From NCBI GenBank assembly GCA_934098485.1, contig CAKOOH010000001.1, positions 68,329 to 132,328 on the forward strand: 64,000 nt of DNA, given 5' to 3'. The notes under the pieces were generated by a model. It saw only the letters and a list, made by a program, of their open reading frames with translations. It was not told the origin of the DNA and ran no database searches. This stretch comes from an uncultured Bacilli bacterium (lineage in GTDB: Bacteria; Bacillota_I; Bacilli_A; RF39; UBA660). Both the position numbers and the translations under genes were made by a program. This document shows, in pieces, positions 11,581 to 34,468 of the stretch (its first letter is position 1; every line of letters begins with the position of its first letter).

Positions 11581-11703
11581 GTAGTAAAATGTTTATAAAA
11601 TGAATTGACAAAGTTTTATAAATTTTATATTATAGTTATAGCATGATAGAAATGTCATGCTGATATCTCTAACGATCTTAATGTTAGAGTGTATCAACCA
11701 AAA

Positions 11704-11734
11704 CCCCCTGAAGAGGCCGAAAGGCCTCATTTTT
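11704..11734 (+). terminator. CCCCCTGAAGAG-hairpin-T5 terminator element, copy 1 of 3
   Basis: CCCCCTGAAGAG at 11704-11715 overlaps the hairpin GAGGCC-gaaa-GGCCTC (11713-11728), followed by ATTTTT. Related copies lie at 23018-23057 and 34196-34234. Confidence 0.6.
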
Positions 11735-11770
11735 GTTTATTTTAAAGAATTTGAGGCCTATTAAATTATT

Positions 11771-11790
11771 TTAGGTACTAAGTTAGGTAC
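11771..11790 (+). repeat. TTAGGTAC tandem doublet (period 12), copy A
   Basis: TTAGGTAC at 11771-11778 and again at 11783-11790. It lies about 40 bp after terminator element 1 and about 120 bp upstream of the AbiEi-like gene. Confidence 0.7.
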
Positions 11791-11912
11791 GTAAATTTAA
11801 AAAAATACTAATTTTTTGACATAAATTATTGGTATTTTATTTTTATAATAGTATTGACATTCATACTGACAAAATATAAAATAATGATATAAAAGTCAAA
11901 AGGAGAATGTAT

Positions 11913-12539
11913 ATGGAAAAGATGACTATAAAAGAGTTTAAAGATCAAAGTAATATTGAGATAATACAGGAGCTAATGAAGGTTAATAATGGATATATTA
12001 CATCTAAACAACTAACCGAATTGGGCATTCATAGAATGTATCTTAATATTATGGTAGATAGAGGTATTATAGAAAAACTTGATAATGGAATATATCTTGA
12101 TGTTAATAAATTTCCAGATTCTTATTATGTACTTAATTTGAATTTATCAGGTATTATATATTCTCATATGACTGCATTATATTTTCATGGATTATCAATT
12201 AAAGCTCCTGATACCAAGTATGATATAACTGTTAAGAAAAATTATAATAGTGTTAAATTGAAAAATCATAATGTATTTTATGTATCTGATGATATATATG
12301 AATTAGGATTAACGGAAGTGAAAACACCATTTGGAAATAATGTTAGAGTATATGATATTGAAAGATGTATATGTGATATTATAAGGTCTAAAAAAAGAAT
12401 GGATAATGAACATATTAAATATAGTTTAAGAGAATATATTAAGAGAAAGGATAAGGATCTTGTTAAACTTTCTAAGTACGCAGATAAAATGGGTATTAAA
12501 AAAGAAGTAATGGATTTATTGGAGTGGTTATATGAATAA
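11913..12539 (+). CDS. AbiEi-like wHTH protein (type IV TA antitoxin / transcriptional regulator family)
   Basis: N-terminal ITSKQLTELGIHRMYLNIMVDRGIIEKLDNGIY resembles the AbiEi N-terminal winged helix. The C-terminal TPFGNNVRVYDIERCICDIIRSK region also resembles AbiEi. RBS AAAGGAGA lies 7 nt before ATG 11913. Confidence 0.55.
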   Translation: MEKMTIKEFKDQSNIEIIQELMKVNNGYITSKQLTELGIHRMYLNIMVDRGIIEKLDNGIYLDVNKFPDSYYVLNLNLSGIIYSHMTALYFHGLSIKAPDTKYDITVKKNYNSVKLKNHNVFYVSDDIYELGLTEVKTPFGNNVRVYDIERCICDIIRSKKRMDNEHIKYSLREYIKRKDKDLVKLSKYADKMGIKKEVMDLLEWLYE

Positions 12540-12732
12540 GATAATAGTTAATAAAATTAAATGTAAAAAATGTGGAGATGTTATTGAATCAACATATAGA
12601 TATGATTTTAAATTTTGTAAATGCGGTGCAGTTGCTGTAGATGGTGGAAAAGATTATTTAAGAAGATTAGGATATGAAGAAGATTATGAAGAATTATCTG
12701 AAGTAGTGAAGGAGGATAAAAAAGATGAATGA
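12532..12732 (+). CDS. small Zn-ribbon protein (CxxC...CxC)
   Basis: The 66-aa product KCKKCGDVIESTYRYDFKFCKCGAVAV carries four Cys residues in a zinc-ribbon arrangement. It overlaps the upstream stop by 8 nt, suggesting translational coupling. Confidence 0.45.
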   Translation: MNKIIVNKIKCKKCGDVIESTYRYDFKFCKCGAVAVDGGKDYLRRLGYEEDYEELSEVVKEDKKDE

Positions 12733-12946
12733 TAAATACGTATTTGAAACTGAAAGTTCTAGAGAAATGGAAATAGTAGCTTCTAGACATAAAATACTAT
12801 CAGTTTTAGATGATATAAAGAATTGGCGTAGAGAATTATATAAAGGATATGATAATAATGTAAGAATCTATGTAATGGTAAATTATATACTCACACTGAT
12901 TTTGAAGAAGCAAGAGATAAATTACCAAAAGATGAACATGGATTAA
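12725..12946 (+). CDS. small hypothetical protein, probably frameshifted (it continues in the -1 frame to 13038)
   Basis: Overlaps the upstream gene by 8 nt. A second frame, 12859-13038 (..DFEEARDKLPKDEHGLIKDCKHVYLDIDLIDKIDNILSEVNYLLDY), has no start codon, consistent with a frameshift. Confidence 0.3.
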   Translation: MNDKYVFETESSREMEIVASRHKILSVLDDIKNWRRELYKGYDNNVRIYVMVNYILTLILKKQEINYQKMNMD

Positions 12947-13183
12947 TAAAAGATTGTAAGCATGTTTATTTAGATATTGATTTAATAGATAAAATTGATA
13001 ATATACTTTCAGAAGTTAATTATTTATTAGATTACTAAATTCTATTTATGTATTGACAAAACAAATAATAATTAGTAAAATATCATTTATTATTTATGTT
13101 TTTGTGAAAAAATCACAAAAATAATAAAAATAAGTATACTTTTTTATAATTTGAGTATATAATATTAATAGGAGGAGATAAAA

Positions 13184-14452
13184 ATGCTTATAGAATTTAG
13201 TGTTAAAAATTTTTTATCATTTAAAGATAAAGTTACATTATCAATGGAAAAAGGTAATGGTGATGAAAAACTAGAAAATGTATTTACTAAAAATGATGTT
13301 GATCTGTTAAGAACAACTGCTATTTATGGAGCAAATGCATCTGGTAAAACAAATATTTTAAAAGCTTTTACTTGCGCAATATTAATGATTAGAAATTCTA
13401 ATTTTATGAATGCCACTAATAAATGGCTTTCAATAAAACCTTTCTTATTTGATAAAAAAACAAGTAAGGAACCTAGTGAATTTGAATTTATTTTCATTGC
13501 TAATGGTGTTAAATATAGATACTTCTTTAGTGCAGATGCAAATAAGATATATGATGAAATTTTAGATGCATATTATACACAGAAACCAACAAATATATTT
13601 ACAAGAACAAATACAAATGATTATGAATTTAATAATGATAAATCTAAATTAGACTCAATAGCTGCAAAGAATACTGAAAATAAACTATTTTTAACAACAG
13701 CAACAACTTGGAATTATGATAAAACAAAAGATGCATTTTTATGGTTTAGTGAAAAAATTGATACATATGATTCATTTGATAGGATATTAGATCAGGACTT
13801 AATTGAATATAGTAAAAATGATGGAGAATTAAAAGAATTTGCTTTAAAATTATTAAAAGAAGCAGATATATTTATTAAAGATATTCATGTTGATTATGAA
13901 GAAAAAGAAATGGATAATGCAATGATGGATTTGTTAATTCCACCACTTGCTAGAACTAACGGAACATTTAAAATGTCTAATGTTAGAATAGAATTAGAAC
14001 ATGAAATAACTGATGAAAATAAAAATAAACATATTTATAGTTTAAATTTCAATGATGAATCATCAGGAACACGAACATTATTTGCTTTAGCGCCATTTTT
14101 AAAAAGAGCATTTGAGAGTACAAAAACAATTGTAGTAGATGAACTAGAAAAAAGTATGCATCCAGCATTAGTAGAATTTATTGTAAAACTATTTAATGAT
14201 AAATCTGTTAATAAAGCAAATAGTCAGTTGATATTCATAACTCATGCAACAAATTTATTAACAATAGAATTATTAAGAAGAGATCAGATATGGTTTACTG
14301 AAAAAAATCCAGACACTGGTGTTTCAGAATTATATCCACTTGATTCGTTTTCAGTTAGAAAAGATGAAAATATTCAGAAAGGTTACATAAATGGTAGATA
14401 TGGGGCAGTTCCATTTATAAAAGATATTGATTCATGGCCAGAAGATATGTAG
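13184..14452 (+). CDS. AAA_21-type ABC ATPase (AbiLi/RloA-like)
   Basis: MLIEFSVKNFLSFKD...AIYGANASGKTNILKA (Walker A). Walker B IVVDELEKSMHP. RBS AGGAGGAG. Confidence 0.55.
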   Translation: MLIEFSVKNFLSFKDKVTLSMEKGNGDEKLENVFTKNDVDLLRTTAIYGANASGKTNILKAFTCAILMIRNSNFMNATNKWLSIKPFLFDKKTSKEPSEFEFIFIANGVKYRYFFSADANKIYDEILDAYYTQKPTNIFTRTNTNDYEFNNDKSKLDSIAAKNTENKLFLTTATTWNYDKTKDAFLWFSEKIDTYDSFDRILDQDLIEYSKNDGELKEFALKLLKEADIFIKDIHVDYEEKEMDNAMMDLLIPPLARTNGTFKMSNVRIELEHEITDENKNKHIYSLNFNDESSGTRTLFALAPFLKRAFESTKTIVVDELEKSMHPALVEFIVKLFNDKSVNKANSQLIFITHATNLLTIELLRRDQIWFTEKNPDTGVSELYPLDSFSVRKDENIQKGYINGRYGAVPFIKDIDSWPEDM

Positions 14453-15048
14453 CACCAAGAAAAAGTAAAAGACCAATAATTATTATTGGCTCTGAAGGTG
14501 AAGGTAGAAATACAGAAAAGTGTTATTTTGGAAACTTTTCAAATAATAGTTTAAGAATTAAATTTTCTACTGGTGGGAGTACTAATCCTAAAGGAATGGT
14601 TGATGATTTGATTAATTATATTCATAATATAGATGCTAAATCAGAAGATCACATAAGAACATTCTTAGTACTAGATACAGATTTAAGTGAAAAACGAATA
14701 AGTGAAATAAAAGAAATAGAACAGAAATGCAAAGATAATAATATTGAAATCATAACTTCGGCTCCAACATTTGAAATATGGTTTTTAATGCATTATAGAA
14801 ACAATAAATTAAAGTTTCTAACAAGTAAAGATGTAAAAAGGGAATTAGAAAAAATTAATGGTACATATTCAGAAACTATGGATATGTATAACAAAATTAA
14901 AAATCAAACAGATGATGCAAGAAGTACTGCACAATCTATTGAACAACAAATTATTAAAGATAGTGAAGATTTATTAAAATCTAATCCACATTCTAGTGTT
15001 TATAAAATATTAGATGCAATAGATGAATTTAATAATTTGAAAGATTAA
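14434..15048 (+). CDS. RloB-like protein (AbiLii-like, Toprim/OLD-related)
   Basis: RPIIIIGSEGEGRNTEKCYFGNF matches the RloB N-terminal EGExTExxYF motif. It overlaps the upstream ATPase gene by 19 nt. Confidence 0.5.
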   Translation: MARRYVAPRKSKRPIIIIGSEGEGRNTEKCYFGNFSNNSLRIKFSTGGSTNPKGMVDDLINYIHNIDAKSEDHIRTFLVLDTDLSEKRISEIKEIEQKCKDNNIEIITSAPTFEIWFLMHYRNNKLKFLTSKDVKRELEKINGTYSETMDMYNKIKNQTDDARSTAQSIEQQIIKDSEDLLKSNPHSSVYKILDAIDEFNNLKD

Positions 15049-15170
15049 ATAATTCTCTCTATATAACAAATATAAACATATGTTATAATGTAGTAAAGAA
15101 AGCGCTAGTACAGGCTTGATTAACAAGTTTATGTATTGGCGCTTTTTTAGTAGTAAAGGAGTATAAATAT

Positions 15171-17360
15171 ATGGAAGTTACTTTTAGAAATTATGAGACA
15201 AATAAAGATATTACACTTAATTCAGAAAAATCTTTATTAGTAATTTATGGTAAAAATGGTAGTGGAAAGACAACTTTATCGAGAAATAATTATTTTGATA
15301 AAAATTATGTTTTTAATGAAGATTTTATTTTTTCGAATGTTTATAATATTACAGAAACTGGTGCTTCGCAAACCGCTTCCACTAAAGAAAAATTTTCCGG
15401 ACTTTGGTTAGGCGAAGATATTGTAAAAATAAGAAAAGAAATTAGTAATATATTGGAAATTGAGAAAAAGATAAAAAATGATTTTCAAACTGAACAAACA
15501 AAATTACTAGATTTTTTTGCTAAAAATCAAATTCAAGTTAATATTTATGATAAAATCAAAGAATTAAATGATAAAGATTTTTGCTTGAATTTAGAAAAAT
15601 ATGATGAGCAAAAAGAAAACTATATTTCGACTTTAATTTTTAAAACCAATATAACAGATAAAGAAAAGTTTATTGAAAAATTAACATATTATAGAAAAAA
15701 TGATATTTATAATATGCTTGTTTCAAAGATAAAATCTAATAACTTATTATCTGAATTAATATTTGCAGATGTTAAAGGTTATATTGATAATATAAATATG
15801 AGGATAAGTCTATTAAGTAAGCAAAAAGAAATAATAGATGAAGTTGAAAAAATATATAAAGATGAAGAAATTACTAATGATCTAAAGGAAAAAATACAAG
15901 ATTGGTATGAAATCCATAAGGATAGGAATAAATGTGTATTTTGTGGCAATACAAATATAGAATCTGCAAAAACAAAATGGAAAAAAGTTTTTTTGAATGA
16001 ATTTATTGATTGCAAAAATAAATTAATAAAGGAATTAAGAATTGATTTAAATTATTGCGAAAATATTATCAATGAAAAACAATTTGCTGAAGTTGATAAA
16101 GATATTATTGACACTATTTCTAAATTGATCAACTATTTAAAAAAATACATTGAAGATACCGAAAAAAATGTATTTTCAAAATTTGAATATAAAGTGGAAT
16201 TTGTAAAAAAAGAAATTGTAGAATTAAATGATTTAATAAACAATTTAGTTAATTATGTTTTGAATAAAAAGAAAGATATCTTAGGTTTTTATCATAATTC
16301 ACAGCAATTTGTAGAAAAATTAAAAAAAGAAAAATTAGAATTAACTGATAAATTAATGGATGAAAAAGGCATTATAATAGCTGATAGTATAAACAAAAAA
16401 TTTGAAAAATTTGGATTAAATAAGAATATAAAGATAATTGTTGATAAACGCTCTACACCTCACAAATTTACATATTCTATCGAAAATCATAGTAATATTA
16501 ATGAATTAAGTGATGGTCAAAAACATAAATTAGCGCTAGCAATTTTTATGAATTATCTTGAAAATCACGATTTGAAAGGTAAAACAATTGTTATTGATGA
16601 TCCAGTGGTTTCACTAGACATTTCGAGTTATATTTTATTTAAACAATATTTATTAAATGATTTAATAATTCAAAAATTTGATGAAAGTACTAAATTGATA
16701 TTATTAACACATGATATCACATATTTATATATCCAATTGTCTAATATATTTGAGAATCAACATATGAGAAATATAACGCAAGTATTTAAATTGAATGGGG
16801 TTAAAATCGAAGAAATTCCATTAGACTTTATTAAAACAGATGACATCACACTATTTAGAGAAGCACTTGATAGTTTAACAAACATATCTGAACTAAGAAT
16901 ATTGAATGCAATAATAAATAAAATTTTCAGAATTGAAATAGACCTTAAGTTAAGGTTTTTTGGATTATCACTTACCGATAAAATAGGAATCGAAGAATTA
17001 AAAATTGATGAGGATAAAAAGAAAATAATTCGAGATTATGGGAAACACATTGTAGAAACAAGCAGAAGAGATCATCCGACCGATAGTGATATTCAACAAA
17101 GTTTATTATATTTAAAAGAAGTATCAGATATTTTAGGATTTAATGATTTTATCACAGATAACCATATTGAAAATATTAATAAAATAGTTAATGAACAAAT
17201 AGATGGACCAATAAATAGTGAGTTGTTTAATTTAATTGACTCTGTAAAGAAATTCCTAAAATCGGATAATAATGATGACTTTAAAAATTATATTGAACAT
17301 ACAAGGAATTCTTATACTCGTAATCTTATTGGTTTGGGGTTAGATGATTATTTCAATTAA
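15171..17360 (+). CDS. RloC/PrrC-like ABC ATPase with a coiled-coil zinc hook; putative abortive-infection anticodon-nuclease-type protein
   Basis: Walker A GKNGSGKTT. A long coiled coil contains CVFCGN (a CxxC hook). D-loop/Walker B IVIDDPVVSLD (AAA_13-like). The C-terminal roughly 200 aa are uncharacterised (..ETSRRDHPTDSD..). Confidence 0.4.
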   Translation: MEVTFRNYETNKDITLNSEKSLLVIYGKNGSGKTTLSRNNYFDKNYVFNEDFIFSNVYNITETGASQTASTKEKFSGLWLGEDIVKIRKEISNILEIEKKIKNDFQTEQTKLLDFFAKNQIQVNIYDKIKELNDKDFCLNLEKYDEQKENYISTLIFKTNITDKEKFIEKLTYYRKNDIYNMLVSKIKSNNLLSELIFADVKGYIDNINMRISLLSKQKEIIDEVEKIYKDEEITNDLKEKIQDWYEIHKDRNKCVFCGNTNIESAKTKWKKVFLNEFIDCKNKLIKELRIDLNYCENIINEKQFAEVDKDIIDTISKLINYLKKYIEDTEKNVFSKFEYKVEFVKKEIVELNDLINNLVNYVLNKKKDILGFYHNSQQFVEKLKKEKLELTDKLMDEKGIIIADSINKKFEKFGLNKNIKIIVDKRSTPHKFTYSIENHSNINELSDGQKHKLALAIFMNYLENHDLKGKTIVIDDPVVSLDISSYILFKQYLLNDLIIQKFDESTKLILLTHDITYLYIQLSNIFENQHMRNITQVFKLNGVKIEEIPLDFIKTDDITLFREALDSLTNISELRILNAIINKIFRIEIDLKLRFFGLSLTDKIGIEELKIDEDKKKIIRDYGKHIVETSRRDHPTDSDIQQSLLYLKEVSDILGFNDFITDNHIENINKIVNEQIDGPINSELFNLIDSVKKFLKSDNNDDFKNYIEHTRNSYTRNLIGLGLDDYFN

Positions 17361-17374
17361 AAAGACCTAGTCCA

Positions 17375-18614: not shown

Positions 18615-18679
18615 AAATCTCCTCCTTTGTTATTTGTTTCATCGAATTCTCTTTGTGCTTCTTCATCCATTTGTCTTAG

Positions 18680-27362: not shown

Positions 27363-28249
27363 CTCAAATAAAATATGAAATAATCTAGAATTTAAGTAAG
27401 GAATATAATATTAAATCATTATGTTTGATAATGAAAGTATCTAGAAGTGGTTATTATAGATGGTTAAAAAATAAAAATATATTAAATCAACATGAAATTA
27501 ATCGTAAAGATTTAGGTGAATTAATTAAAGATATTCGCAAAAGAAAACCAAGTTACGGATATCATAAGATTAATGCAATAATAAGACGTGAAATTGGTTG
27601 AATTGTATCGGATAATTTAGTTCATAAGGTATGTAAAATATTAAATATTAAATCAAAAGCCAAACATTATAAATACAAGAAACTTGGAATGGAATCAATT
27701 AAATATTCAAATCAAATATGTGGTAATTGGAACACATCTAGACCATTTGAAAAAATAGTATCAGATACAACTACGTTTTGGTTTAAGAAAAAGAAATATG
27801 ATTGGACTTTCTATTTAGATATATTTAATAATGAAATAGTTGGTTATGATGTAAGGGATTCAATGCACGGCAATGGTATTATAAATCATAGAGAAGCACT
27901 GAATAATATGTTAAATAACAAAATAAAAAGAGGATATAAAGACCTAGAAACAATCGTTCACACTGATCAAGGTTCAGTATATTCCTCAGTGTCATTTAAC
28001 AATATATTCAATTCTTATAAAGTTACCAGATCTATGTCAAAAGCTGGCACACCAACAGATAATCCAGTTATCGAATCTAAAAATGGCTGGATTAAAAAAG
28101 AAATGTATATTGATTTTGACATAAATAATTATAACACAGTTCAAGAATTTATTGATGAATTTGTTTATGATAATAATTATTATAGACCTAGTTATGCATT
28201 AAATTATAAAACCCCCATCGAGTATAAAACTCAATTGGTGTTTAATTAG
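27314..28249 (+). pseudogene. IS3-family transposase OrfB (DDE/rve), interrupted by in-frame TAG and TGA stops
   Basis: The -1 frame contains ..SRSGYYRWLKNK..RKPSYGYHKINAII.. and the catalytic core HTDQGSVYSS..DNPVIESKNGWIKKE. In-frame stops lie at 27386-27388 (TAG) and 27599-27601 (TGA). Confidence 0.6.
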
Positions 28250-28286
28250 AACTTTTTGTGTCTACTTTTTGTTGACAACTTCAAAA

Positions 28287-29287
28287 CTAATCCTCGGTTT
28301 TATTATTATCTAAATTATCTATTACTGCAACTACTTCATCTAAAGTGCTTGTAAATAGATGTGAATAAGTTTTTAAAGTTTCTTCAACTTTTGTGTGACC
28401 TAAGTATTTTGCTACAACTTGAACATTAGCTCCTTTATTAACTAAAAGAGATGCACATGAATGTCTAAAATCGTGTAATCTAATTTGCTTAACATTAGCA
28501 AATTTACAGTTAACATTTTTATGATTAGTAAGTGTATTGCTACATACAGGAAGCATGTCTCCAGCAACAAAGAAATTATCATTGAATCCTGGTATCTTTT
28601 CTGCCTCGTTTTTCACCATTTTAAGGTCATTTGTGAGGACTTGTGGCATTTTTAATATTCTTATACTACTTTTTGTTTTAGGAACCGAGAATCACCAATT
28701 TTTAATGGAACCACGACGGTCATTAATTTGCTTGGAGATACTTAAAGTTCTATCTTTAAAATTGATATCTTTCCATTGTAATCCTCTAAGCACTCCACGT
28801 CTTAATCCACAGTAATATAATATTTCAAAAATACCAATCTATTTGATATCAGTTTCAACAGAAAGAAATTGTTTAAATTCTTCATAAGTAAAAAATAATT
28901 GTTCTTTAGGAAATTCATTAGAATCATTAAAGTTATACATTTTAGGATATACCTTAGCAAAGTTAAACTCATGCCAAGCAGTAGCATAATTCAAAATAGT
29001 TTTTAATAATTTATATATGTCATTTTTAGTTCTTGTAGCAAGATGAGTACTATTTATTTCATCATGCCATCTTTCAAAAGTAGGGTGGTTAAAATCTTTA
29101 AGTTTAACTTTATATAATGATTTTAAATAAGGCAATTTGTTGTTATAACCATATAATGTATTTTCCTTAACTTTATCTTTTCTAAAATATACTTTTCCAA
29201 ATAACTATCATAGTTATTATAAAAAGGATCAATAACCTTTTCACATTCTTCATCACTTATATCTTCATCAGTACATTTCCTTAACAT
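28287..29287 (-). pseudogene. tyrosine integrase paralog 2, multiply frameshifted and 3'-truncated by the IS
   Basis: Fragments 28287-28649 (..RLHDFRHSCASLLVNKGANVQVVAKYLGHTKVEETLKTYSHL..) and 28839-29135 are paralogous to integrase 1 (..FLSVEDDPK versus FLSVETDIK). The start is ATG 29287 with RBS GGAGGTG. The last codons are encoded by the IS right inverted repeat. Confidence 0.6.
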
Positions 29288-29416
29288 AAACACCTCCATA
29301 TGTATTAATCACTCTAAAAAATATCAAGCTTTTATAAAGAATTATTATAAAATCCAATAGTTTTCTAGGAAAAAAACGACAATTAATGATATAATTAATA
29401 TGGGAGGATAAGGGAA

Positions 29417-30652
29417 ATGGAACTAATAAACAACGTGAATAATTTAGATGGAAAAAATTGGCTTAGAAATGCAATTAATTTTTATGAATTAAAAACATTT
29501 GATTTAGAAGAAATACAAAAGAAGTTCTATGACCTTTGTTATAAAAAAAGAACTTCAGGAAAAACATTTTTAATTAATAGTGAATATAAGATTTTAAATT
29601 ATGATTTCACTTTTCAATATATTCATCATTTTGAAGAGTTAAAAAAAACATTTGATATAATAATAAATTCTTCATATAATTCTTATCATGCAATTTTAGT
29701 GGATGATGAATTAGATAACAATATTTTAATTTCAAAATCTATAACTGAATATGTAGAAAATTCTGGATTAGAATATAGAGGAAAGATAATTGTTAATTTC
29801 AAAGAAGAAAATATAACAAAAAAGGTTTTCTTAATACTTAATAGATTATCAGAGGTTAAACAAATAAAGTTAAAAAAACATGAAATCAACCACGAAAAGA
29901 AATCTGAATATGTTATATCAAGTAAAAGTAAAATTGATAAAATTGGATTAAAGCATCCTGCACCATATAGCTACAATGATATAGAATCGCTAATTGAAAA
30001 AGAAAATATACATGATAAGGTAATTTTGGATCCATTCTTAGGAATTGGTTCAACAATCATTGGAACTTATAAAACTAATTACAATATAGGGATTGAACTT
30101 AATAAAGAATATGTTGAGTTAATAAAAGAAAGAATTAAATTTTTAAATATCAGTGATTTAGATGATAGTAAATATAAAATAATTAATGGTAATTCTTCAA
30201 AAGAAATAAAAAAGATAGATCAAAATATTGATGTTGTTATTACATCACCACCATACTTCAATATTTTAAAAAATAAAAGTAAAGGTGTAAGACATGATAA
30301 AAGTCAAACAAGACAGGGGGTTGAATATTATAGTGAGTTAAAAGATGATATTGGGAATTTAGATGAATATGATGATTACTTAAAGGCAATGGAAAAAATA
30401 TTCAAAGAGTCATTTAATAAAATGAATAATGGCGGAAAGTTTTATTTAATAATTAGTGATTTTACAATAAATAAGAAAGAAACTGATATTCATTCTGATA
30501 TGATCCTTTTAATGAATAAAGTAGGATTTACATATAATGGTACTTCATATATCTTGCAAAATCAAAAAGCAATATATCCTTTTGGATATCCATATAAAAT
30601 TGTATTAAATCATATTTTTCAATATATAATTGTTTTTGAAAAGAGGTGGTAG
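29417..30652 (+). CDS. DNA methyltransferase (N4/N6 family, PF01555-like), RM operon gene 1
   Basis: AdoMet motif ILDPFLGIGSTIIG and catalytic motif VVITSPPYFN. The product is 411 aa with an N-terminal region of about 180 aa of unknown function. Confidence 0.65.
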   Translation: MELINNVNNLDGKNWLRNAINFYELKTFDLEEIQKKFYDLCYKKRTSGKTFLINSEYKILNYDFTFQYIHHFEELKKTFDIIINSSYNSYHAILVDDELDNNILISKSITEYVENSGLEYRGKIIVNFKEENITKKVFLILNRLSEVKQIKLKKHEINHEKKSEYVISSKSKIDKIGLKHPAPYSYNDIESLIEKENIHDKVILDPFLGIGSTIIGTYKTNYNIGIELNKEYVELIKERIKFLNISDLDDSKYKIINGNSSKEIKKIDQNIDVVITSPPYFNILKNKSKGVRHDKSQTRQGVEYYSELKDDIGNLDEYDDYLKAMEKIFKESFNKMNNGGKFYLIISDFTINKKETDIHSDMILLMNKVGFTYNGTSYILQNQKAIYPFGYPYKIVLNHIFQYIIVFEKRW

Positions 30653-31917
30653 TAATGAATAAACAAAGTAAAGACTATAAAGCTAGAAAGAAAATTGGAC
30701 AGTTTTTTACTGAAATCAAATTGGCTGAAAAACTAATTGAAATGTTTGAATTGGATTTTAACAATAAGGTTATAGTTGAACCATCATGTGGGGATGGTGT
30801 ATTTATTAAACAAATTATAAAAAAATCACCATTATTCAAAAATATCATTGGAATTGATATAGATAAAAAGGCACTTAGTAAATTATCTGGATTAAGTGAT
30901 AATATTGAATTAAAAAATAAAGATTTTCTAAAATTAAAATTCTCTAATGTTGATGTTGTGATTGGTAATCCGCCATTTAATTTAAAAGTCGATGACTTTG
31001 TTGATTCAACTGAAGCTTTTATTTCAAAAGGAATTGATATTTTAAAACCTGGAGGCGAATTAATATTAATAATTCCGAATACTGTTCTTAGAAGTCAAAA
31101 ATATCAAAAACTAAGAACAAAAATTTTAGATGAAACAAAAATTATAGGCATTGTAGATACAAGAGGACATGAGTTCCTGGGAGCTGATGTTGAAACGGTT
31201 GCAATATATTTGAAAAAAGAAAAAATAAGTGCACAAGAATATTACTATATTTCCAATGGCCAAAAGAGAAATATTGTTTTAGAAAGAAATATAAGAGATA
31301 CAATTTTATTGTATAATCGAAATTACTATAACATTATAAATAGTAAAATATTAGGTTGTAATTTGGAAGAATTATTCTATGTTAGAAGAGGTAATTGCAA
31401 GGCAAATGGGTTAAAAGGAAGAGATCTAGATTTTTACAATGATATTTATTATATGCCAGACGGTAATAGTGTATTTATAGCTATACAAAATATAGCGTAT
31501 AGATTGACTGCAAATGTAGTTAGAGGAGATCTTGACAAAATTTCTGATACTATAACAATGCTAATTCCAAAAAAGAATATGACAATTTTAGAAATGAAGT
31601 ATATTGCAAATTATTTAAATTCATCAGTTGCTTATTACAATTTGCATATAAATTGTTTAAATAATAGCAGGTTAACTATACATATGGATAAATATTATAT
31701 TGATGATATCAAAATACCAAGTTGTGATAATAAAGTATTGGATCATATGAGCAATATATTAAAAGGTCACGAGAGAAAACAAGATATTATTAATATTAGA
31801 AATGACTTCTTTTATAATACGTTTTCGTTGGATTTAGAAGTAATAAATGAAATAGAAAAATTTTGGAAGGCTCCAAAATATAAACTAAAAGAAGGAAGTA
31901 TGGGGTATGAATGTTGA
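30646..31917 (+). CDS. gamma-class N6-adenine DNA methyltransferase (Eco57I/TaqI-like), RM operon gene 2
   Basis: Motif X GQFFTE. Motif I EPSCGDGVF. Motif IV GNPPFN. A C-terminal TRD-like region follows. Overlaps gene 1 by 7 nt. Confidence 0.65.
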   Translation: MVVMNKQSKDYKARKKIGQFFTEIKLAEKLIEMFELDFNNKVIVEPSCGDGVFIKQIIKKSPLFKNIIGIDIDKKALSKLSGLSDNIELKNKDFLKLKFSNVDVVIGNPPFNLKVDDFVDSTEAFISKGIDILKPGGELILIIPNTVLRSQKYQKLRTKILDETKIIGIVDTRGHEFLGADVETVAIYLKKEKISAQEYYYISNGQKRNIVLERNIRDTILLYNRNYYNIINSKILGCNLEELFYVRRGNCKANGLKGRDLDFYNDIYYMPDGNSVFIAIQNIAYRLTANVVRGDLDKISDTITMLIPKKNMTILEMKYIANYLNSSVAYYNLHINCLNNSRLTIHMDKYYIDDIKIPSCDNKVLDHMSNILKGHERKQDIINIRNDFFYNTFSLDLEVINEIEKFWKAPKYKLKEGSMGYEC

Positions 31918-32401
31918 AAATGTTGTAAACTATGAAAATGAAATTGCAATGTATCCAGATATAATGGAGAGTATTAAGTTTTATATGGATTTATTTGGAT
32001 ATGAATGTAAGGTATTTGAAACTTGGCATGAGTTTAAGCCTGAATTGCGTGAGAGATTTCAAAGAGAAATAGATATATTAGGTGATTTTGGTAAGCCAGA
32101 TATTACGGTCTTATATAGAAAATCAAGTGATGAAGATGATAAAGTGTTAATAATAGAAGCTAAATTGAATAGTGTTGTTATGAAAGATATAGCTCAAGCA
32201 AAAATGTATGGTGATATCTTTAAGGCAGATAAGGTCTTTTTAGTTGCTCCTTATGAATTAAGGAGAATGATTGAACAATACTATTATGTAAATAAAAATA
32301 TTTTTAGATATGATGGCGATAAAGAAATTAAATATGTAAGGCTTTCTGATTGTAATCTACTTATACAACAATCAATCCCATCGGGAGGTGAGTTGTTTTG
32401 A
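31907..32401 (+). CDS. small PD-(D/E)xK nuclease-fold protein (candidate restriction endonuclease catalytic subunit)
   Basis: GKPDITVLYRK...VLIIEAKL fits the PD...ExK motif. Overlaps gene 2 by 11 nt. Confidence 0.4.
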   Translation: MNVENVVNYENEIAMYPDIMESIKFYMDLFGYECKVFETWHEFKPELRERFQREIDILGDFGKPDITVLYRKSSDEDDKVLIIEAKLNSVVMKDIAQAKMYGDIFKADKVFLVAPYELRRMIEQYYYVNKNIFRYDGDKEIKYVRLSDCNLLIQQSIPSGGELF

Positions 32402-33402
32402 TAACTGCAAATGAATCGTATTTATTAGGAATCCTATTTGGTAAGGGTTCTATTATTGTTACTGATAATGGTAATGTAGTGTTAAATTTTAGGGTTAAAT
32501 TTAGAAGACCTACTGATGGATCTTTGAGAACTGATAATATTCATACTCAAAGTGAAGAAAGAGCATATGTAGAAACATTAAAATCAAAACTATCTAATGA
32601 CTTTTCTGAAATAATTTATTTACTAAGAGATACATGGAACATTAATTCAAAGATAGATCTTCCTAATTCATATAGTTTAGATGATTGGAAAATGAAAGAA
32701 ATACTTATATCAACCGAAGAAATACCATGTGATTATCAAAGATTATGTGAATTGCTTAATGTTGGATACTTAGAAAATAATGTATTAAAAAAATTTCCTT
32801 TTCATCTAAATTTAGAAAATAATAAAATGAATGCGTTGTCTTTTTTACAGGGAATATGTGATTCTTGTTCGCTTGTTCCAAATGAAGCATCAAGTAGCTA
32901 TGGAGGAGATGGAGATTCTAGAATTCAACTTGAACCATCTCAAGAAAGATGGGAAATACCTATTGGGATTTGTAGGGTATTTCAAGTTGGATTATCAATA
33001 CCTGTAAATAACATAAATTGGGGCCATCCGCAAATTAGAGGCATGGATGTGTGGAGAGGCCAAAATCACCAATTTAGAGTTAGTTTAAAAAATATTCCTC
33101 CACAAATTGAATTATACAGATTATCATATAAAAGAGAAGAATATCGTAATTTATATGCTAGAAGAAATACATCTTATGAAGAAGCAGATTTATGCCCAGT
33201 TAGTAAGAGAGTAAAAGAGGGAGAAGTAATTCACGTATATAGAACATCAAATCCTGAGATTGATAATGATTTATTGGATGAAAGAATTAGAGGTATTAGC
33301 ATAGATGTATCACAAAGAAAGAGCCTTATAGTATGTAAGCTATTAGGGTGTACTCAGTGCCAAGACTATTTTGATGTTGAAATTGATAAAAATGATAATT
33401 AA
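32398..33402 (+). CDS. hypothetical 334-aa protein; candidate DNA-recognition partner of the small nuclease
   Basis: TTG start overlapping the upstream TGA (TTGA), with RBS GGGAGGTGAG 6 nt upstream. No recognisable motif. Confidence 0.35.
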   Translation: MITANESYLLGILFGKGSIIVTDNGNVVLNFRVKFRRPTDGSLRTDNIHTQSEERAYVETLKSKLSNDFSEIIYLLRDTWNINSKIDLPNSYSLDDWKMKEILISTEEIPCDYQRLCELLNVGYLENNVLKKFPFHLNLENNKMNALSFLQGICDSCSLVPNEASSSYGGDGDSRIQLEPSQERWEIPIGICRVFQVGLSIPVNNINWGHPQIRGMDVWRGQNHQFRVSLKNIPPQIELYRLSYKREEYRNLYARRNTSYEEADLCPVSKRVKEGEVIHVYRTSNPEIDNDLLDERIRGISIDVSQRKSLIVCKLLGCTQCQDYFDVEIDKNDN

Positions 33403-33408
33403 AATAAT

Positions 33409-33440
33409 TTGCTTAGATTTTGATAATCTAGGCTTTTTTA
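33409..33440 (+). terminator. rho-independent terminator after the RM-like operon
   Basis: GCTTAGATT-ttgat-AATCTAGGC hairpin (one G-U pair) followed by a T6 run. Confidence 0.6.
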
Positions 33441-33477
33441 GTGATATAATATATAACTAATAAATGAGGTGACTAAA

Positions 33478-34065
33478 ATGAAAGAATCAAGAATCATTAT
33501 AATTATTTCAATTGCTATGCTGATAGCACTAATTCCTTTATTATACGTTTTGCAATTGTGTGGAATAAGTAGTGAATTGAGTATAAATATAATTACCAAT
33601 TTAGGATGTGGGATTATAGTTGGTTTAGTTACAGCCATATGTCAGTATTTTATGGCAAAAAGTCGTATTATAAATACAGTGTACGGTCTATATTTTGAAT
33701 TATATACTACTTATTATTCTGTTAAAAATAAAGAATTTTTCCATCATATTAATACTATTGCATTATTTAAAAAACTTACTGGATTATCCACCGAAATCAA
33801 GAATACATTGTCAGAATATCATGGCTTTTTTAAAGAAAAGGAATCTATGTATACGAAAATTAATCCACAGATCAATATAGGTGAAAATTATAAAGCTGAA
33901 AAAATAATTAAAACTATTATTAAATGGTTTAATGAGAAAGCATTTGATGAAAGTGTTGAACCATTTATAAATGAAGTAGAGAATATATTAAAAAGTATTG
34001 ATGAAAAAAGATTTAAAGAAGATAAAGAACAAATGATAAAAATGTTTAATTATATATGGAAATAG
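33478..34065 (+). CDS. hypothetical membrane protein (2 N-terminal TM segments plus a cytoplasmic domain)
   Basis: The extended -10 TGaTATAAT lies at 33439-33449. RBS AATGAGGTGA lies 6 nt before ATG 33478. The track's GTG 33469 start is less likely. Confidence 0.4.
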   Translation: MKESRIIIIISIAMLIALIPLLYVLQLCGISSELSINIITNLGCGIIVGLVTAICQYFMAKSRIINTVYGLYFELYTTYYSVKNKEFFHHINTIALFKKLTGLSTEIKNTLSEYHGFFKEKESMYTKINPQINIGENYKAEKIIKTIIKWFNEKAFDESVEPFINEVENILKSIDEKRFKEDKEQMIKMFNYIWK

Positions 34066-34072
34066 TTATTTC

Positions 34073-34092
34073 GGGAACAAATGGGGAACAAT
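34073..34092 (+). repeat. GGGAACAA tandem doublet (period 12)
   Basis: cGGGAACAAatgGGGAACAA lies immediately after the 33478 gene stop. It is related to the doublet at 24644-24665. Confidence 0.55.
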
Positions 34093-34195
34093 TACATAGG
34101 GCAAGATAGATAAAATAGGACTATTTACGAAAAATATAGCAAATGATAAGTCAATAATAATGAAAAATATGACAAAAAAATAGGGTATAATTTTT

Positions 34196-34234
34196 CCCCT
34201 CCTGAAGAGAGCATCTAACCGTGCTCTTATTTTT
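34196..34234 (+). terminator. CCCCTCCTGAAGAGAG-hairpin-T5 terminator element, copy 3 of 3
   Basis: AGAGCA-tctaaccg-TGCTCT hairpin followed by TATTTTT. It is preceded by a TATAAT-like box at 34184-34189. Confidence 0.5.
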
Positions 34235-34282
34235 GTGCCTATTTTATAAGGAATTGTGAGGTATCAAGTTTGCTAAAATAAT

Positions 34283-34301
34283 TTAGGTACAATTTAGGTA
34301 C
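34283..34301 (+). repeat. TTAGGTAC tandem doublet (period 11), copy E
   Basis: TTTAGGTACAA followed by TTTAGGTACAA, about 45 bp after terminator element 3. Confidence 0.65.
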
Positions 34302-34468
34302 AAAAAAATTTGATTTAAGTATAGTTCATTGCATAAAAGTGATGAAAATGGCAAAAAAATCTTTTGTAAAAATATGTTGTTATTCTTTGCAAGTTATTTG
34401 GAAGTTCCACATGGTGAAGGAGATTTTTCACTTCTTATTAAGAACTTAGTAAAAATGATTGTACTACT

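What the first reader, a model, noticed from the sequence alone, without database searches (positions are those of the whole stretch)
11581..34468. About 23 kb modular accessory/defence island between a DUF975 gene and the core; candidate serial cassette accretion at one hotspot
Two blocks of housekeeping genes (murA..recG and rhodanese..htpG) flank a region packed with phage-defence-type genes. These include an AbiEi-like protein, an AbiL-like pair, an RloC-like ATPase, type I RM remnants, a helicase, a two-MTase RM operon and nuclease-motif unknowns. The region also holds two decayed tyrosine integrases and a decayed IS3. The modules are separated by recurring repeat elements, listed as separate findings. 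This architecture suggests successive site-specific insertions into one att hotspot followed by decay of the recombinases.
Basis: partly seen in the sequence, partly recalled or inferred. Interest (0 to 1): 0.7.

Follow-up and report, generated by a model that had tools for sequence, protein, structure and literature searches.

The report
Defence islands stacked at sRNA gene
The 23 kb region is a real, strain-variable stack of at least three integrated mobile elements carrying anti-phage genes, all inserted one after another into the 3' end of a previously undescribed, highly conserved small-RNA gene of an uncultured gut Bacilli bacterium; it is a well-documented new example of a known process, not a new kind of system.

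Summary
Pfam and PADLOC confirm AbiEi (orphan), AbiLi/AbiLii, an AAA_13 ATPase, an orphan HsdS, a PDC-S53 helicase, two MTases, two decayed tyrosine integrases and a decayed IS3.

Contigs encoding an identical DUF975 protein carry at least 7 different contents at this spot. All diverge exactly after CCCCCTGAAGAG (11704-11715).

That 12-mer is the 3' end of an unannotated sRNA gene at about 11640-11737. The gene has a promoter, two covarying hairpins, an invariant C-rich tail and a terminator, and no Rfam match.

The 12-mer recurs only at 23018 and 34198. A degenerate copy lies at 24556.

Each copy is followed by a different terminator and flanked by doublet repeats that look like arm sites. 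Each element is bracketed by its own doublet type.

This defines E1 (11716-23029), E2 (23030-24563, no integrase) and E3 (24564-34209). A stub of an older element follows.

The DNA to the right of every internal junction directly abuts the sRNA in other genomes. Same-family integrases and a temperate phage sit at this sRNA in many species.

Side finding: E3's candidate restriction enzyme pairs a PD-(D/E)XK subunit with a catalytically dead double-LAGLIDADG-fold subunit.

The parts
11605..11737 (+). Core sRNA gene, which is the attB target. It has a promoter TTGACA-17-TATTAT (11605-11633), two hairpins (about 11640-11695), the single-stranded tail UAUCAACCAAAACCCCCUGAAG, and a terminator hairpin 11713-11728 followed by a T-run.
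   Evidence: - Promoter and terminator scan.
- Fold z-score of -6.45.
- Covariation: 11 of 18 pairs compensatory, 94% of cells paired against 31-51% in slid controls, 0 of 500 shuffles reach the observed score.
- The promoter is conserved in 26 of 32 distinct variants.
- The 19-mer tail is identical in relatives found through RecG alone, at 51-61% RecG identity.
- No Rfam family matches.
11704..11715 (+). J0: att core CCCCCTGAAGAG at the sRNA 3' end. This is the left border of the variable region.
   Evidence: Homology of L001, L002, L005 and L009 to the window stops exactly at 11715. After ...CUGAAG every haplotype has a different terminator.
11716..23017 (.). Element E1 (11.3 kb), bracketed by TTAGGTAC doublets at 11771-11790 and 22879-22898. 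It is probably the youngest element.
   Evidence: Its integrase carries a single lesion.
11907..12946 (+). E1 cargo: AbiEi-family gene (11907-12539, no AbiEii partner), DUF7695 (12532-12732) and a 73-aa ORF (12725-12946).
   Evidence: DUF7695 recurs about 300 nt after the sRNA in L048, L063 and L079.
13184..15048 (+). E1 cargo: AbiLi (AAA_21, 13184-14452) and AbiLii/RloB (14434-15048), which together make a complete AbiL pair by HMM.
   Evidence: A homologous pair (49% and 38% identity) lies directly after the sRNA in another species, L063.
15171..17360 (+). E1 cargo: a 729-aa AAA_13 ATPase with Walker A at residue 27 and a CVFC motif at residue 255. It gives weak hits to candidate system PDC-S06. 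It is RloC-like, but membership is not established.
17375..18614 (-). IntA: a tyrosine-integrase pseudogene. One small deletion between the HxxR box and the catalytic Tyr splits it into 335-aa and 86-aa ORFs.
   Evidence: - Pfam Phage_integrase plus Arm-DNA-bind_4.
- Removing one base restores a 412-aa protein colinear with the L045 integrase, 69% identical.
- The same lesion is present in independent assemblies.
18973..22876 (+). E1 cargo: an orphan type I specificity gene hsdS (18973-20079) and a 909-aa SF1 helicase matching candidate system PDC-S53 over its full length (20147-22876).
   Evidence: There is no hsdM or hsdR in the window. L007 has a 36% identical helicase at the same hotspot.
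23018..23029 (+). J1: second copy of the att core, followed by its own terminator (23030-23052).
   Evidence: The stretch 23017-23260 is 93% identical to the DNA after the second core of L001. The stretch 23018-23077 is 92% identical to the DNA abutting the sRNA in L035.
23030..24555 (.). Element E2 (1.5 kb), with no recombinase. It carries GNAT (23296-23856) and VanY (23846-24451) and is bracketed by identical TTAGGTAAGAATTAGGTAA doublets at 23107-23125 and 24437-24455. It resembles a cis-mobilizable element, or it is a deletion remnant.
   Evidence: (D6).
24556..24563 (+). J2: a degenerate att core (ACCCCCTG), followed by the conserved TTTATAAGGG box (24603-24612).
   Evidence: The stretch 24606-24780 is 70% identical to the DNA at +41..+225 after the sRNA in L028.
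24564..34197 (.). Element E3 (9.6 kb), bracketed by GGGAACA doublets at 24647-24664 and 34073-34090. It is older and more decayed than E1.
   Evidence: Its right end (33441-34357) is 82% identical to a segment of a tandem array at the same sRNA in another species, L053.
24785..26907 (+). E3 cargo: a 215-aa unknown protein and a 487-aa protein (DUF8370/DUF8371; PADLOC candidate PDC-M36A at 1e-14).
26931..28283 (+). An IS3-family element with 25-bp imperfect inverted repeats (TGAAGTTGT...ACAACTTCA) and a 9-bp duplication AAACTAATC. It inserted into the hairpin between the 487-aa gene and IntB. Its transposase is split into three ORFs.
   Evidence: (I1).
28287..29135 (-). IntB: a heavily decayed tyrosine integrase. 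The arm-binding N-terminus is missing, and there is an internal stop plus a frameshift.
   Evidence: It is 69% identical to the intact L001 integrase in the catalytic part and 70% identical to IntA at the DNA level over 282 nt (D1).
29417..33402 (+). E3 cargo: a four-gene restriction-modification-like module.
- N6_N4 MTase (29417-30652).
- Eco57I-type N6 MTase (30646-31917).
- A 164-aa PD-(D/E)XK nuclease (31907-32401).
- A 334-aa double-LAGLIDADG-fold protein (32398-33402).
   Evidence: - MTases.
- The four genes stay together in distant homologues.
33469..34065 (+). E3 cargo: a 198-aa predicted membrane protein of unknown function.
   Evidence: A 76% identical homologue lies at the same relative place in L053.
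34198..34209 (+). J3: third copy of the att core (CCTCCTGAAGAG, one mismatch), followed by its own terminator.
   Evidence: The stretch 34198-34357 is 82-85% identical to the DNA abutting the sRNA in L031, L048, L063 and L079.
34210..34514 (.). Stub of the oldest element (E4). It keeps only a terminator, the TTTATAAGG box and a TTAGGTAC doublet at 34283-34301. The rest was deleted together with native genes.
   Evidence: This right junction is shared by all island-bearing haplotypes of the species.
34469..34765 (+). A 98-aa ORF that is the remnant of the 3' end of a native trypsin-like gene. The gene is intact (536 aa) in the L003-type haplotype.

Best explanation
Model
The region is a tandem array of integrative elements. 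Each was inserted by a phage-type tyrosine integrase into the same attB, which is the 3' end of a conserved small-RNA gene lying just after DUF975.

Proposed steps
1. Each incoming element carries an attP. It holds the sRNA tail (...CCCCCUGAAG), its own Rho-independent terminator and its own arm-type doublet repeats.
2. Recombination inside the shared tail leaves the sRNA intact but gives it the element's terminator. The previous 3' end is pushed to the far side of the new element.
3. Repetition stacked E4, then E3, then E2, then E1 (inferred order), with the newest next to the sRNA.
4. The integrases then decayed. IntA has one small deletion. IntB lost its N-terminus and gained a stop and a frameshift. 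An IS3 landed next to IntB and decayed in turn. One core eroded. A deletion removed most of E4 plus three native genes. The array is now fixed.

Cargo
The cargo is mostly anti-phage or candidate anti-phage: AbiL, an AbiEi-family gene, an AAA_13 ATPase, a PDC-S53 helicase, a PDC-M36A-like pair and a two-MTase restriction system.

Shown
- The core repeats and the junction anatomy.
- Strain-level and species-level variability at this site.
- The RNA gene.
- The association of this integrase family with the site.
- The lesions in the integrases and the IS3.

Inferred
- That these integrases catalysed the insertions.
- That the doublets are arm sites.
- The order of arrival.
- That the cargo defends against phage.
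For: Break point
- All haplotypes with an identical DUF975 protein break at 11715.
- The core 12-mer occurs only at 11704, 23018 and 34198. A remnant lies at 24556.

Terminators
- Eight different terminators follow ...CUGAAG within this one species, and many more occur in others.

Arm-type doublets
- Each window element is bracketed by its own doublet type: TTAGGTAC for E1, TTAGGTAA for E2 and GGGAACA for E3.
- The doublets sit at conserved distances from the core.
- The same holds for the L001 element.

Junction flanks
- The right flanks of J1, J2 and J3 are each found abutting the sRNA in other genomes.

Generality of the site
- Tandem arrays also occur in L001 and L053.
- Integrases 40-70% identical to IntA and IntB lie on the minus strand 80-2600 nt (in two loci 3.3-6.7 kb) after the sRNA, in 12 of 61 metagenome or viral loci from several species.
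- One locus is a temperate phage end, with integrase, CI-like repressor, SSB and NinB.

Unoccupied sites
- Candidate unoccupied sites share one terminator type, GACCUC-GNRA-GAGGUC, across species.

Gene turnover
- Downstream ORFs: 200 fall into 163 clusters. Upstream ORFs: 195 fall into 65 clusters.
- PADLOC models hit: 430 downstream against 6 upstream.

Decay gradient
-.

Precedents
-.
Against: - No intact integrase is present in the window, and no excised circle or attP was found. Activity is therefore inferred from association only.
- J2 keeps only 8 nt of the core.
- The bracket rule fails for the second segment of L053, which has a TTAGGT arm on the left and a GGGAACA arm on the right. 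Arrays are clearly also reshaped by deletion.
- The integrases sit in the middle of E1 and E3, 5-6 kb from attL, not at the edge. The same layout is seen in L045, and in L001 at 1.7 kb.
- The identical 23 kb haplotype in at least 17 contigs shows that the stacking is not ongoing in this lineage.
- All island-bearing haplotypes share the right junction. Whole-array replacement by homologous recombination could therefore explain part of the strain diversity.
Confidence: 0.8

Rival explanations
1. The 23 kb array was assembled elsewhere, or long ago, and reached this lineage in one step. It arrived either as a composite element using J0 and J3 as its ends, or by homologous recombination in the shared flanks. 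On this view the hotspot diversity within the species reflects allele replacement, not repeated integration here.
For: - The identical haplotype is present in at least 17 contigs.
- All island-bearing haplotypes share the same right junction and the same truncated trypsin-like gene, while the left flank is 98-99% identical. That gives long homology arms for replacement.
- The right end of E3 plus J3 plus the E4 arm occurs as a block in another species.
Against: - This view still requires serial site-specific accretion somewhere to create the internal junctions.
- L001 has a different element in front of an E2-type left end, so modules do reassort.
- The decay gradient along the array argues for different ages.
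Confidence: 0.3
2. The repeats are not att sites. They are ordinary terminators or a dispersed intergenic repeat (REP- or MITE-like). The region is variable only because of illegitimate or homologous recombination between core genes.
For: Each core copy is part of a terminator-like hairpin with a T-run. The integrases are dead.
Against: - The core and the doublets occur nowhere else in the 64 kb.
- All copies lie on one strand and in register.
- Haplotypes break at the same nucleotide.
- The same integrase family is found at the same sRNA in many species and in a phage.
- Junction flanks recur next to the sRNA elsewhere.
Confidence: 0.04
3. IntA and the neighbouring hsdS form a phase-variable type I restriction shufflon, not the integration module of an element.
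For: A tyrosine recombinase lies divergently next to an hsdS gene.
Against: - There is no hsdM, no hsdR and no second hsdS in the window.
- No inverted hsdS repeats were found.
- IntA has an arm-binding domain and groups with the integrases that sit next to the sRNA att site.
- Its closest annotated relatives are Firmicute phage integrases.
Confidence: 0.03

Closest known systems
Tandem ssrA genomic islands of Dehalococcoides (PMC3146451)
   Same: - Several islands lie in tandem downstream of a single-copy RNA gene.
- Each is delimited by a direct repeat of that gene's 3' end.
- The integration genes lie on the reverse strand near attL.
- Some islands lack recombination genes or are fixed, and accretion is invoked to explain them.
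   Different: - The recombinase there is a serine recombinase; here it is a lambda-type tyrosine integrase with an arm-binding domain.
- The target there is tmRNA; here it is a roughly 95-nt sRNA.
- The cargo there is reductive dehalogenases; here it is anti-phage genes.
Accretion of ICESt1-type elements and CIMEs in Streptococcus thermophilus (own knowledge; concept reviewed in PMC5704250 and PMC5812530, listed but not read)
   Same: Site-specific integration next to a resident element gives composite arrays with internal att sites. Elements that keep their att sites but have no recombinase (CIMEs) resemble E2.
   Different: The target there is the 3' end of a protein-coding gene (fda). The elements there carry conjugation or mobilisation modules, and none is present in the window.
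Defence-island integration hotspots of E. coli (PMC10121019, listed; abstract only)
   Same: Anti-phage systems are concentrated on mobile elements that occupy a limited number of chromosomal hotspots, with different cargo in different strains.
   Different: - The host phylum differs.
- The hotspot here is defined to the nucleotide.
- It is an sRNA gene shared across genera of uncultured Bacilli.
Prophage integration into sRNA genes (ryeB in Salmonella, ryeE/cyaR in E. coli; PMC3603311)
   Same: The 3' end of a structured, conserved sRNA gene is used as attB.
   Different: Those are single prophages in Enterobacteria. Here a diversified integrase family, defence islands and phages share one sRNA, and the terminator is visibly swapped by each element.
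Heterodimeric and type IIS restriction enzymes with a separate cleavage subunit (FokI cleavage domain, R.BspD6I small subunit)
   Same: The E3 module has two MTases, as expected for an asymmetric site. It also has a small PD-(D/E)XK protein whose fold matches type IIS cleavage domains.
   Different: The partner subunit has a double-LAGLIDADG fold without the canonical acidic residues. No such restriction subunit was found in the literature searched. Activity has not been tested.

Membership tests
Integrative island at the 3' end of an RNA gene (tyrosine-integrase type) | Direct repeats of the 3' end of the target gene flank the element | tested here: met
   CCCCCTGAAGAG occurs at 11704, 23018 and 34198 and nowhere else in 64 kb. 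A remnant lies at 24556.
Integrative island at the 3' end of an RNA gene (tyrosine-integrase type) | The target is a real RNA gene whose 3' end is rebuilt by the element | tested here: met
   - Promoter, covarying hairpins and terminator.
- Element-specific terminators after ...CUGAAG.
- Transcription itself has not been shown.
Integrative island at the 3' end of an RNA gene (tyrosine-integrase type) | A tyrosine integrase with the R..HxxR..Y catalytic set is encoded in the element | tested here: inconclusive
   Both genes belong to the family. After repair IntA shows the LRNGELRGL Arg, HDFRHS and the Tyr in YSHMY. Both genes are pseudogenes in the window.
Integrative island at the 3' end of an RNA gene (tyrosine-integrase type) | An unoccupied site exists in related genomes | tested here: inconclusive
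   - L003, L004 and L016 have no integrase and no second core.
- Their terminator type is shared with other species in which recG follows directly.
- The FtsK-like gene next to the sRNA in these contigs could itself be of mobile origin.
Integrative island at the 3' end of an RNA gene (tyrosine-integrase type) | Excision and integration activity | not testable with these tools
   No circular junction was found in IMG/VR.
Tandem accretion array with a CIME-like member | The inner flanks of internal att sites occur as attL next to the target in other genomes | tested here: met
   - J1 right flank matches L035 and L001.
- J2 right flank matches L028.
- J3 right flank matches L031, L048, L063 and L079.
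- Sources.
Tandem accretion array with a CIME-like member | A segment flanked by att sites lacks any recombinase | tested here: met
   E2 (23030-24555) holds only GNAT and VanY, between identical doublets. A deletion remnant cannot be excluded.
Defence island | Several known or candidate anti-phage systems are clustered, with strain-variable content | tested here: met
   PADLOC hits. Variable content. PADLOC models hit: 430 downstream against 6 upstream.
Defence island | Protection against phage | not testable with these tools
   PDC-S53, PDC-S06 and PDC-M36 are only candidate systems in PADLOC-DB.
AbiE (type IV toxin-antitoxin / abortive infection) | AbiEi antitoxin together with an AbiEii nucleotidyltransferase toxin | tested here: not met
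   AbiEi scores 7e-61. The next genes are DUF7695 and a 73-aa ORF with no AbiEii hit, and there is no room for one.
AbiL | AbiLi (AAA ATPase) followed by AbiLii (RloB-like) | tested here: met
   7.4e-93 and 6.2e-16 in PADLOC. AAA_21 and RloB in Pfam. The two ORFs overlap.
RloC anticodon nuclease | AAA_13 ATPase with a CxxC zinc hook in a coiled coil and a C-terminal anticodon-nuclease domain | tested here: inconclusive
   AAA_13 at 1.9e-16. A single CVFC motif at residue 255. No model for the nuclease domain was available, and NCBIfam gave only ABC-like noise.
Type I restriction-modification | hsdS together with hsdM and hsdR | tested here: not met
   Only hsdS is present. No hsdM or hsdR lies elsewhere in the window.
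Type II (IIS-like) restriction-modification | Methyltransferase(s) plus a nuclease with a catalytic motif in one operon | tested here: met
   - Two MTases.
- The 164-aa protein has an invariant PD..ExK motif and a restriction-endonuclease fold.
- The operon is conserved in distant homologues.
- Cleavage and methylation have not been tested.
LAGLIDADG homing endonuclease | [quoted passage not shown] | tested here: met
LAGLIDADG homing endonuclease | Acidic metal-binding residue at the base of each LAGLIDADG helix | tested here: not met
   By my own hand alignment of the two motifs (G11 and G152 placed at motif position 3), the corresponding positions are the invariant K16 and C157. WhiA likewise lacks the acidic residues and is not a nuclease (PMC3384342).
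IS3 family insertion sequence | HTH orfA plus rve orfB between TG...CA inverted repeats, with a target duplication | tested here: met
   The transposase is broken into three ORFs, so the element is inactive.

The most novel reading that the evidence does not exclude
The four-gene module of E3 (29417-33402) may be a restriction-modification system of an architecture not on record. It would combine two MTases, a small FokI-like PD-(D/E)XK cleavage subunit and a separate DNA-recognition subunit built on a catalytically dead double-LAGLIDADG scaffold. It rides on elements that dock at a new, lineage-wide sRNA whose terminator each element replaces.
Probability: 0.35. Interest if true: 0.65.

Novelty: new member of a known kind. 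Interest (0 to 1): 0.5.

Why it matters
- The analysis gives a nucleotide-precise, conserved landmark for finding defence islands, integrative elements and prophages in a large group of uncultured, low-GC gut, rumen and digester Bacilli. The landmark is the RecG-(DUF975)-sRNA synteny together with the invariant tail CAACCAAAACCCCCTGAAG. Composition-based island finders would fail here, because the island has the same GC content as its flanks.
- It documents a clear natural example of tandem accretion in which each element keeps its own arm-repeat signature. That makes the history of the array readable.
- It yields two testable by-products: an undescribed sRNA family with an invariant C-rich single-stranded tail, and a candidate restriction enzyme that uses a LAGLIDADG-fold subunit.
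- The process itself (integration into RNA-gene 3' ends, accretion, decay, defence cargo) is established biology.

Tried and rejected
- **tRNA or tmRNA as target:** none is present in the window.
- **Rfam:** no family matched at gathering score or at E up to 10 around 11540-11800.
- **Excised forms:** searching IMG/VR for the predicted E1 attP junction, and for the common core-plus-terminator, gave nothing. The sRNA tail gave one viral contig, which is an integrated phage end with host flank.
- **Independent contexts for E2:** the identical GNAT protein returned only the window haplotype.
- **The 334-aa protein:** no Pfam, NCBIfam, PADLOC, PDB-sequence or plasmid hit. Only the fold search was informative.
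- **The 164-aa protein:** no sequence-level hits.
- **Repeats as REP/MITE elements, and the IntA-hsdS shufflon:** both rejected (see rivals).
- **A fourth ACCCCCTG at 8793:** it lies in the loop of the PFOR terminator and is unrelated.
- **The 'own arm type on both sides' rule:** it does not hold for the second segment of L053, so I do not claim it as general.
- **'Rhodanese-like' label for the 250-aa flank gene:** could not be confirmed.
- **Not run:** the complete DefenseFinder and PADLOC pipelines with their system-level rules.

Full report
**1. What is in the window**

The window has about 25% GC throughout, and the island is not compositionally distinct from its flanks. It has no tRNA or tmRNA gene.

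It matches, at 100% identity, contigs from human-gut metagenomes. The nearest genome record is a MAG labelled 'uncultured Bacilli bacterium' from a Hadza sample. ORFs are long and well covered by Pfam models under genetic code 11.

- The left flank is core: murA-type gene, L31, RpiB, SpoIID, an M23 peptidase, PFOR, RecG and DUF975.
- The right flank is core: a 250-aa protein without a Pfam hit, a thioredoxin-like lipoprotein, TetR, an AMP-binding enzyme, an ABC transporter, AddAB-like genes and HtpG.
- The 'rhodanese-like' label rests only on a PspE hit at E=0.22.

**2. Gene content of 11.6-34.5 kb**

- An AbiEi-family protein at 7e-61, but no AbiEii. It is followed by DUF7695 and a 73-aa ORF.
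- AbiLi at 7e-93, with an overlapping AbiLii/RloB gene.
- A 729-aa AAA_13 ATPase with a single CVFC motif. Its PADLOC hits are weak, to candidate PDC-S06.
- A tyrosine integrase in two ORFs.
- An hsdS gene. There is no hsdM or hsdR anywhere in the window.
- A 909-aa helicase matching candidate PDC-S53 end to end at 3.6e-287.
- GNAT and VanY, which are not defence genes.
- A 215-aa protein and a 487-aa protein (DUF8370/8371; PDC-M36A at 1e-14).
- An IS3 element in three ORFs.
- Two fragments of a second integrase.
- An N6_N4 MTase and an Eco57I-type MTase.
- Proteins of 164 aa and 334 aa without any family hit.
- A 198-aa membrane protein.

The 'PDC' systems are candidates only.

**3. The region is strain-variable, and the break point is exact**

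I looked up contigs that encode exactly the same DUF975 protein. This gave 24 contigs with the same left flank, at 98.5-100% DNA identity, but different contents after it.

- L001: a protein kinase, an integrase and a DpnII-type RM system.
- L002: an integrase, Mob/Rep-like genes and other cargo.
- L005, with its right side seen in L098: an IS200-type transposase, UvrD, a Schlafen-type helicase and further genes.
- L007, with its right side seen in L100: an integrase fragment, an AlwI-type RM system, a 906-aa helicase and Fic.
- L006 and L008: the window's own content.
- L003, L004 and the species-representative MAG L016: a short form in which an FtsK-like gene, a 184-aa gene and a trypsin-like gene are followed directly by the right-hand core.
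- L011: OLD- and UvrD-family genes, seen from the right side.

Homology to the window ends at 11715 in four haplotypes, and within the next 43 nt in the others.

**4. The break point is the 3' end of an sRNA gene**

Position 11715 is the last base of CCCCCTGAAGAG. Upstream lies a near-consensus promoter, TTGACA-17-TATTAT, at 11605-11633. Next come two hairpins, then a single-stranded tail UAUCAACCAAAACCCCCUGAAG, then a terminator hairpin with a T-run. The fold z-score is -6.45.

In every haplotype the sequence up to ...CUGAAG is the same. The terminator hairpin that follows has a different sequence but the same design.

A scan of public metagenomes with the 22-nt tail found 60 loci from human gut, rumen, termite gut and digesters. 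These hold 33 distinct versions of the 85 nt upstream.

- An alignment of 24 versions supports both hairpins. Compensatory changes occur in 11 of 18 pairs. 94% of cells are paired, against 31-51% when the partners are slid. None of 500 shuffles reaches the observed score.
- G-U pairs, the promoter (conserved in 26 of 32 versions) and the terminators all point to the + strand.
- The scan required the tail, so its invariance had to be checked independently. Relatives found only through RecG (L018-L021, 51-61% RecG identity) all carry the identical 19-mer 120-200 nt after recG or DUF975.
- No Rfam family matches.

I therefore treat it as an undescribed trans-acting sRNA. The resemblance of its C-rich tail to the seed regions of RoxS/RsaE comes from my own recollection and was not tested.

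**5. Anatomy of the array**

The 12-mer recurs only at 23018 (exact) and 34198 (one mismatch) in the whole 64 kb, both on the + strand. An 8-nt remnant, ACCCCCTG, lies at 24556.

Each copy is followed by its own terminator, except the remnant. Each is also followed by a conserved TTTATAAGG-type box.

About 115-140 nt to the left and 65-85 nt to the right of the cores lie tandem doublets of a 7-8-mer. All are on the + strand.

- TTAGGTAM-N3-5-TTAGGTAM occurs 5 times against 0.00 expected.
- GGGAACA-N-GGGAACA occurs 2 times against 0.00 expected.

The doublets pair up around the segments.

- TTAGGTAC at 11771 and 22879.
- TTAGGTAA, as an identical 19-mer, at 23107 and 24437.
- GGGAACA at 24647 and 34073.
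- A lone TTAGGTAC at 34283.

This defines E1 (11716-23029), E2 (23030-24563) and E3 (24564-34209), plus a stub E4 (34210 to about 34514).

The integrases have an Arm-DNA-bind domain. I therefore read the doublets as arm-type sites specific to each element's integrase. This is an inference.

The L001 element shows the same rule, with TTAGGTACC doublets on both inner sides, and it is followed by an E2-type left end. The second segment of the L053 array does not follow the rule. Arrays are evidently also remodelled by deletions.

**6. The internal junctions are former attL sites**

The DNA immediately to the right of each internal core is found directly abutting the sRNA in other genomes.

- J1 right flank: in L035 (92% identical), and after the second core of L001 (93% over 244 nt).
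- J2 right flank (24606-24780): at +41..+225 after the sRNA in L028 (70% identical).
- J3 right flank (34198-34357): in L031, L048, L063 and L079 (82-85% identical).
- Sources.

In L048, L063 and L079 the DNA continues with DUF7695, and in L063 with an AbiLi/AbiLii pair. The E4 stub is therefore the left end of an element related to the left half of E1.

A second species, L053 (RecG 70% identical), has its own array with cores at 0, +6.4 kb and +8.9 kb. It shares E3's right end, J3 and the E4 arm at 82% identity.

**7. Integrases**

IntA becomes a 412-aa protein, colinear with the L045 integrase (69% identical), when one base is removed. The lesion is a small deletion between the HxxR box and the catalytic Tyr. 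It is present in independent assemblies.

IntB lacks its N-terminal part and has a stop and a frameshift. An IS3 element with 25-bp inverted repeats and a 9-bp duplication sits in the hairpin between the 487-aa gene and IntB. That IS3 is itself broken.

Integrases of this family, 40-70% identical, lie on the minus strand with the 3' end facing the sRNA.

- They are 80-2600 nt after the tail in ten of the 61 loci, and 3.3-6.7 kb after it in L083 and L045. They also occur in L001, L002, L007 and L018.
- In L045 the space between the sRNA and the integrase holds ToxN, Fic, DUF6994 and DUF4268. This is the same layout as E1 and E3.
- L085, from IMG/VR, is the end of a temperate phage: integrase, CI-like S24 repressor, a PD-(D/E)XK protein, SSB and NinB.
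- The nearest annotated relatives are Firmicute phage integrases at about 32% identity.

**8. Empty site and right border**

The L003-type haplotype has no integrase, no doublets and no second core. Its terminator is GGACCUC-GAAA-GAGGUCC. That type recurs in other species where recG follows the sRNA directly. I take this to be the unoccupied state, with the caveat that the FtsK-like gene could itself be of mobile origin.

All island-bearing haplotypes of the species share the J3-type junction, the E4 arm and a truncated trypsin-like gene. The 98-aa ORF at 34469-34765 is that truncated gene. One old deletion therefore removed most of E4, the final att copy and about 4 kb of native DNA. It predates the present diversity.

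**9. Hotspot statistics**

In 71 loci, 200 ORFs downstream of the sRNA fall into 163 clusters at 60% identity. The 195 upstream ORFs fall into 65 clusters.

At E<=1e-10 the 150 downstream representatives hit 430 PADLOC models, including type I RM systems. The 65 upstream representatives hit 6 models, which are helicase-type matches. The model count is inflated by redundant RM models and is only a coarse contrast.

**10. Mechanism and order**

If each newcomer integrates at the intact sRNA end, every core copy should be followed by the terminator and arm of the element to its right. The oldest element should then lie furthest from the sRNA. The window fits this expectation.

- The order of arrival would be E4, then E3, then E2, then E1.
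- Decay increases with distance. IntA has one lesion. E2 has no integrase. J2 is eroded. IntB is wrecked and next to a dead IS. E4 is reduced to 300 bp.

The order is an inference, because integration into internal att copies is also possible.

The identical 23 kb haplotype in at least 17 contigs shows that the array is now inherited as a block. No excised form was found.

**11. Comparison with known systems**

- Integration into sRNA genes is known for ryeB and ryeE (PMC3603311).
- Tandem islands delimited by repeats of an RNA gene's 3' end, including members without recombinase and 'accretion', are described for Dehalococcoides ssrA (PMC3146451).
- Defence cargo at integration hotspots is described for E. 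coli (PMC10121019).

The present locus is a new member of that kind. Its distinguishing points are the new sRNA target, shared across genera, and the readable arm-repeat signatures.

**12. Side finding in E3**

- *Gene neighbourhood.* The four genes stay together in homologues down to 35% identity in unrelated contexts.

The likely reading is a type IIS-like system in which the LAGLIDADG-fold protein provides DNA recognition and the small subunit cleaves. This is untested. I found no such architecture in the literature searched.

**13. Verdict**

The finding is a new member of a known kind, of moderate interest.

Noticed in passing
window 11605-11737 (+); also L018-L021 and L025-L085: An undescribed sRNA family of about 95 nt. 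It has a conserved sigma-70-type promoter, two covarying hairpins, an invariant single-stranded tail UAUCAACCAAAACCCCCUGAAG and a terminator. It is usually syntenic with recG and DUF975 and is found in many uncultured Bacilli from gut, rumen and digesters. No Rfam match. Its function is unknown; the C-rich tail suggests pairing with G-rich ribosome-binding sites.
   Followed up: yes
window 31907-33402 (+); L093-L097: A conserved gene pair next to two MTases. One is a 164-aa PD-(D/E)XK protein whose fold resembles type IIS cleavage domains. The other is a 334-aa double-LAGLIDADG-fold protein that lacks the canonical acidic residues. Together they are a candidate two-subunit restriction enzyme of an unrecorded architecture.
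   Followed up: partly
window 11907-12946 (+): An AbiEi-family gene overlaps by 8 nt with a DUF7695 zinc-ribbon gene and a 73-aa ORF, in place of an AbiEii toxin. DUF7695 alone recurs at the left end of related elements (L048, L063, L079, L053). This may be a different partner set for AbiEi-like regulators.
   Followed up: partly
window 26922-26930 and 28284-28292: The IS3-family element is flanked by a 9-bp direct repeat, AAACTAATC. To my knowledge that is longer than the 3-5 bp usual for IS3. The insertion lies in the loop of a bidirectional terminator hairpin (AACCGAG...CTCGGTT).
   Followed up: partly
window 34685-34710; L003 14788-14916; L011 4400-4528: Relative to L003, L100 and L011, the window (like L098, L099 and L103) lacks about 128 bp inside the trypsin-like gene remnant. 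The BLAST pieces overlap by about 25 nt, which suggests deletion between short repeats.
   Followed up: no
L003 11263-15026 (also L004 and L016): The presumed unoccupied haplotype carries a short (425 aa) FtsK/SpoIIIE-type protein with a gamma domain, a 184-aa protein and a 536-aa trypsin/cadherin-like protein next to the sRNA. The short FtsK-like gene could itself be a remnant of a mobile element.
   Followed up: no
window 48598-49605 (-) and 23846-24451 (+): The genome has a second, larger VanY-family D,D-carboxypeptidase (335 aa) in the core right flank. The island-borne 201-aa VanY, with its GNAT partner, is therefore an extra copy.
   Followed up: no
L017 (contig CAVIQT010000057, labelled Phocaeicola vulgatus) and L021 (labelled Bacteroidaceae): These contigs encode PFOR, RecG and DUF975 that are 82-89% identical to the window (L017), or a RecG 61% identical followed by the sRNA (L021). 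They sit in bins labelled Bacteroidales and are probably mis-binned Bacilli contigs.
   Followed up: no
L098 7857-7878; L053 oriented +6284: Further doublet types lie about 120-135 nt left of degenerate or intact cores: TACCTATA doublets in L098 and ACCCATC doublets in L053. This suggests more arm-site specificities in this integrase family.
   Followed up: partly
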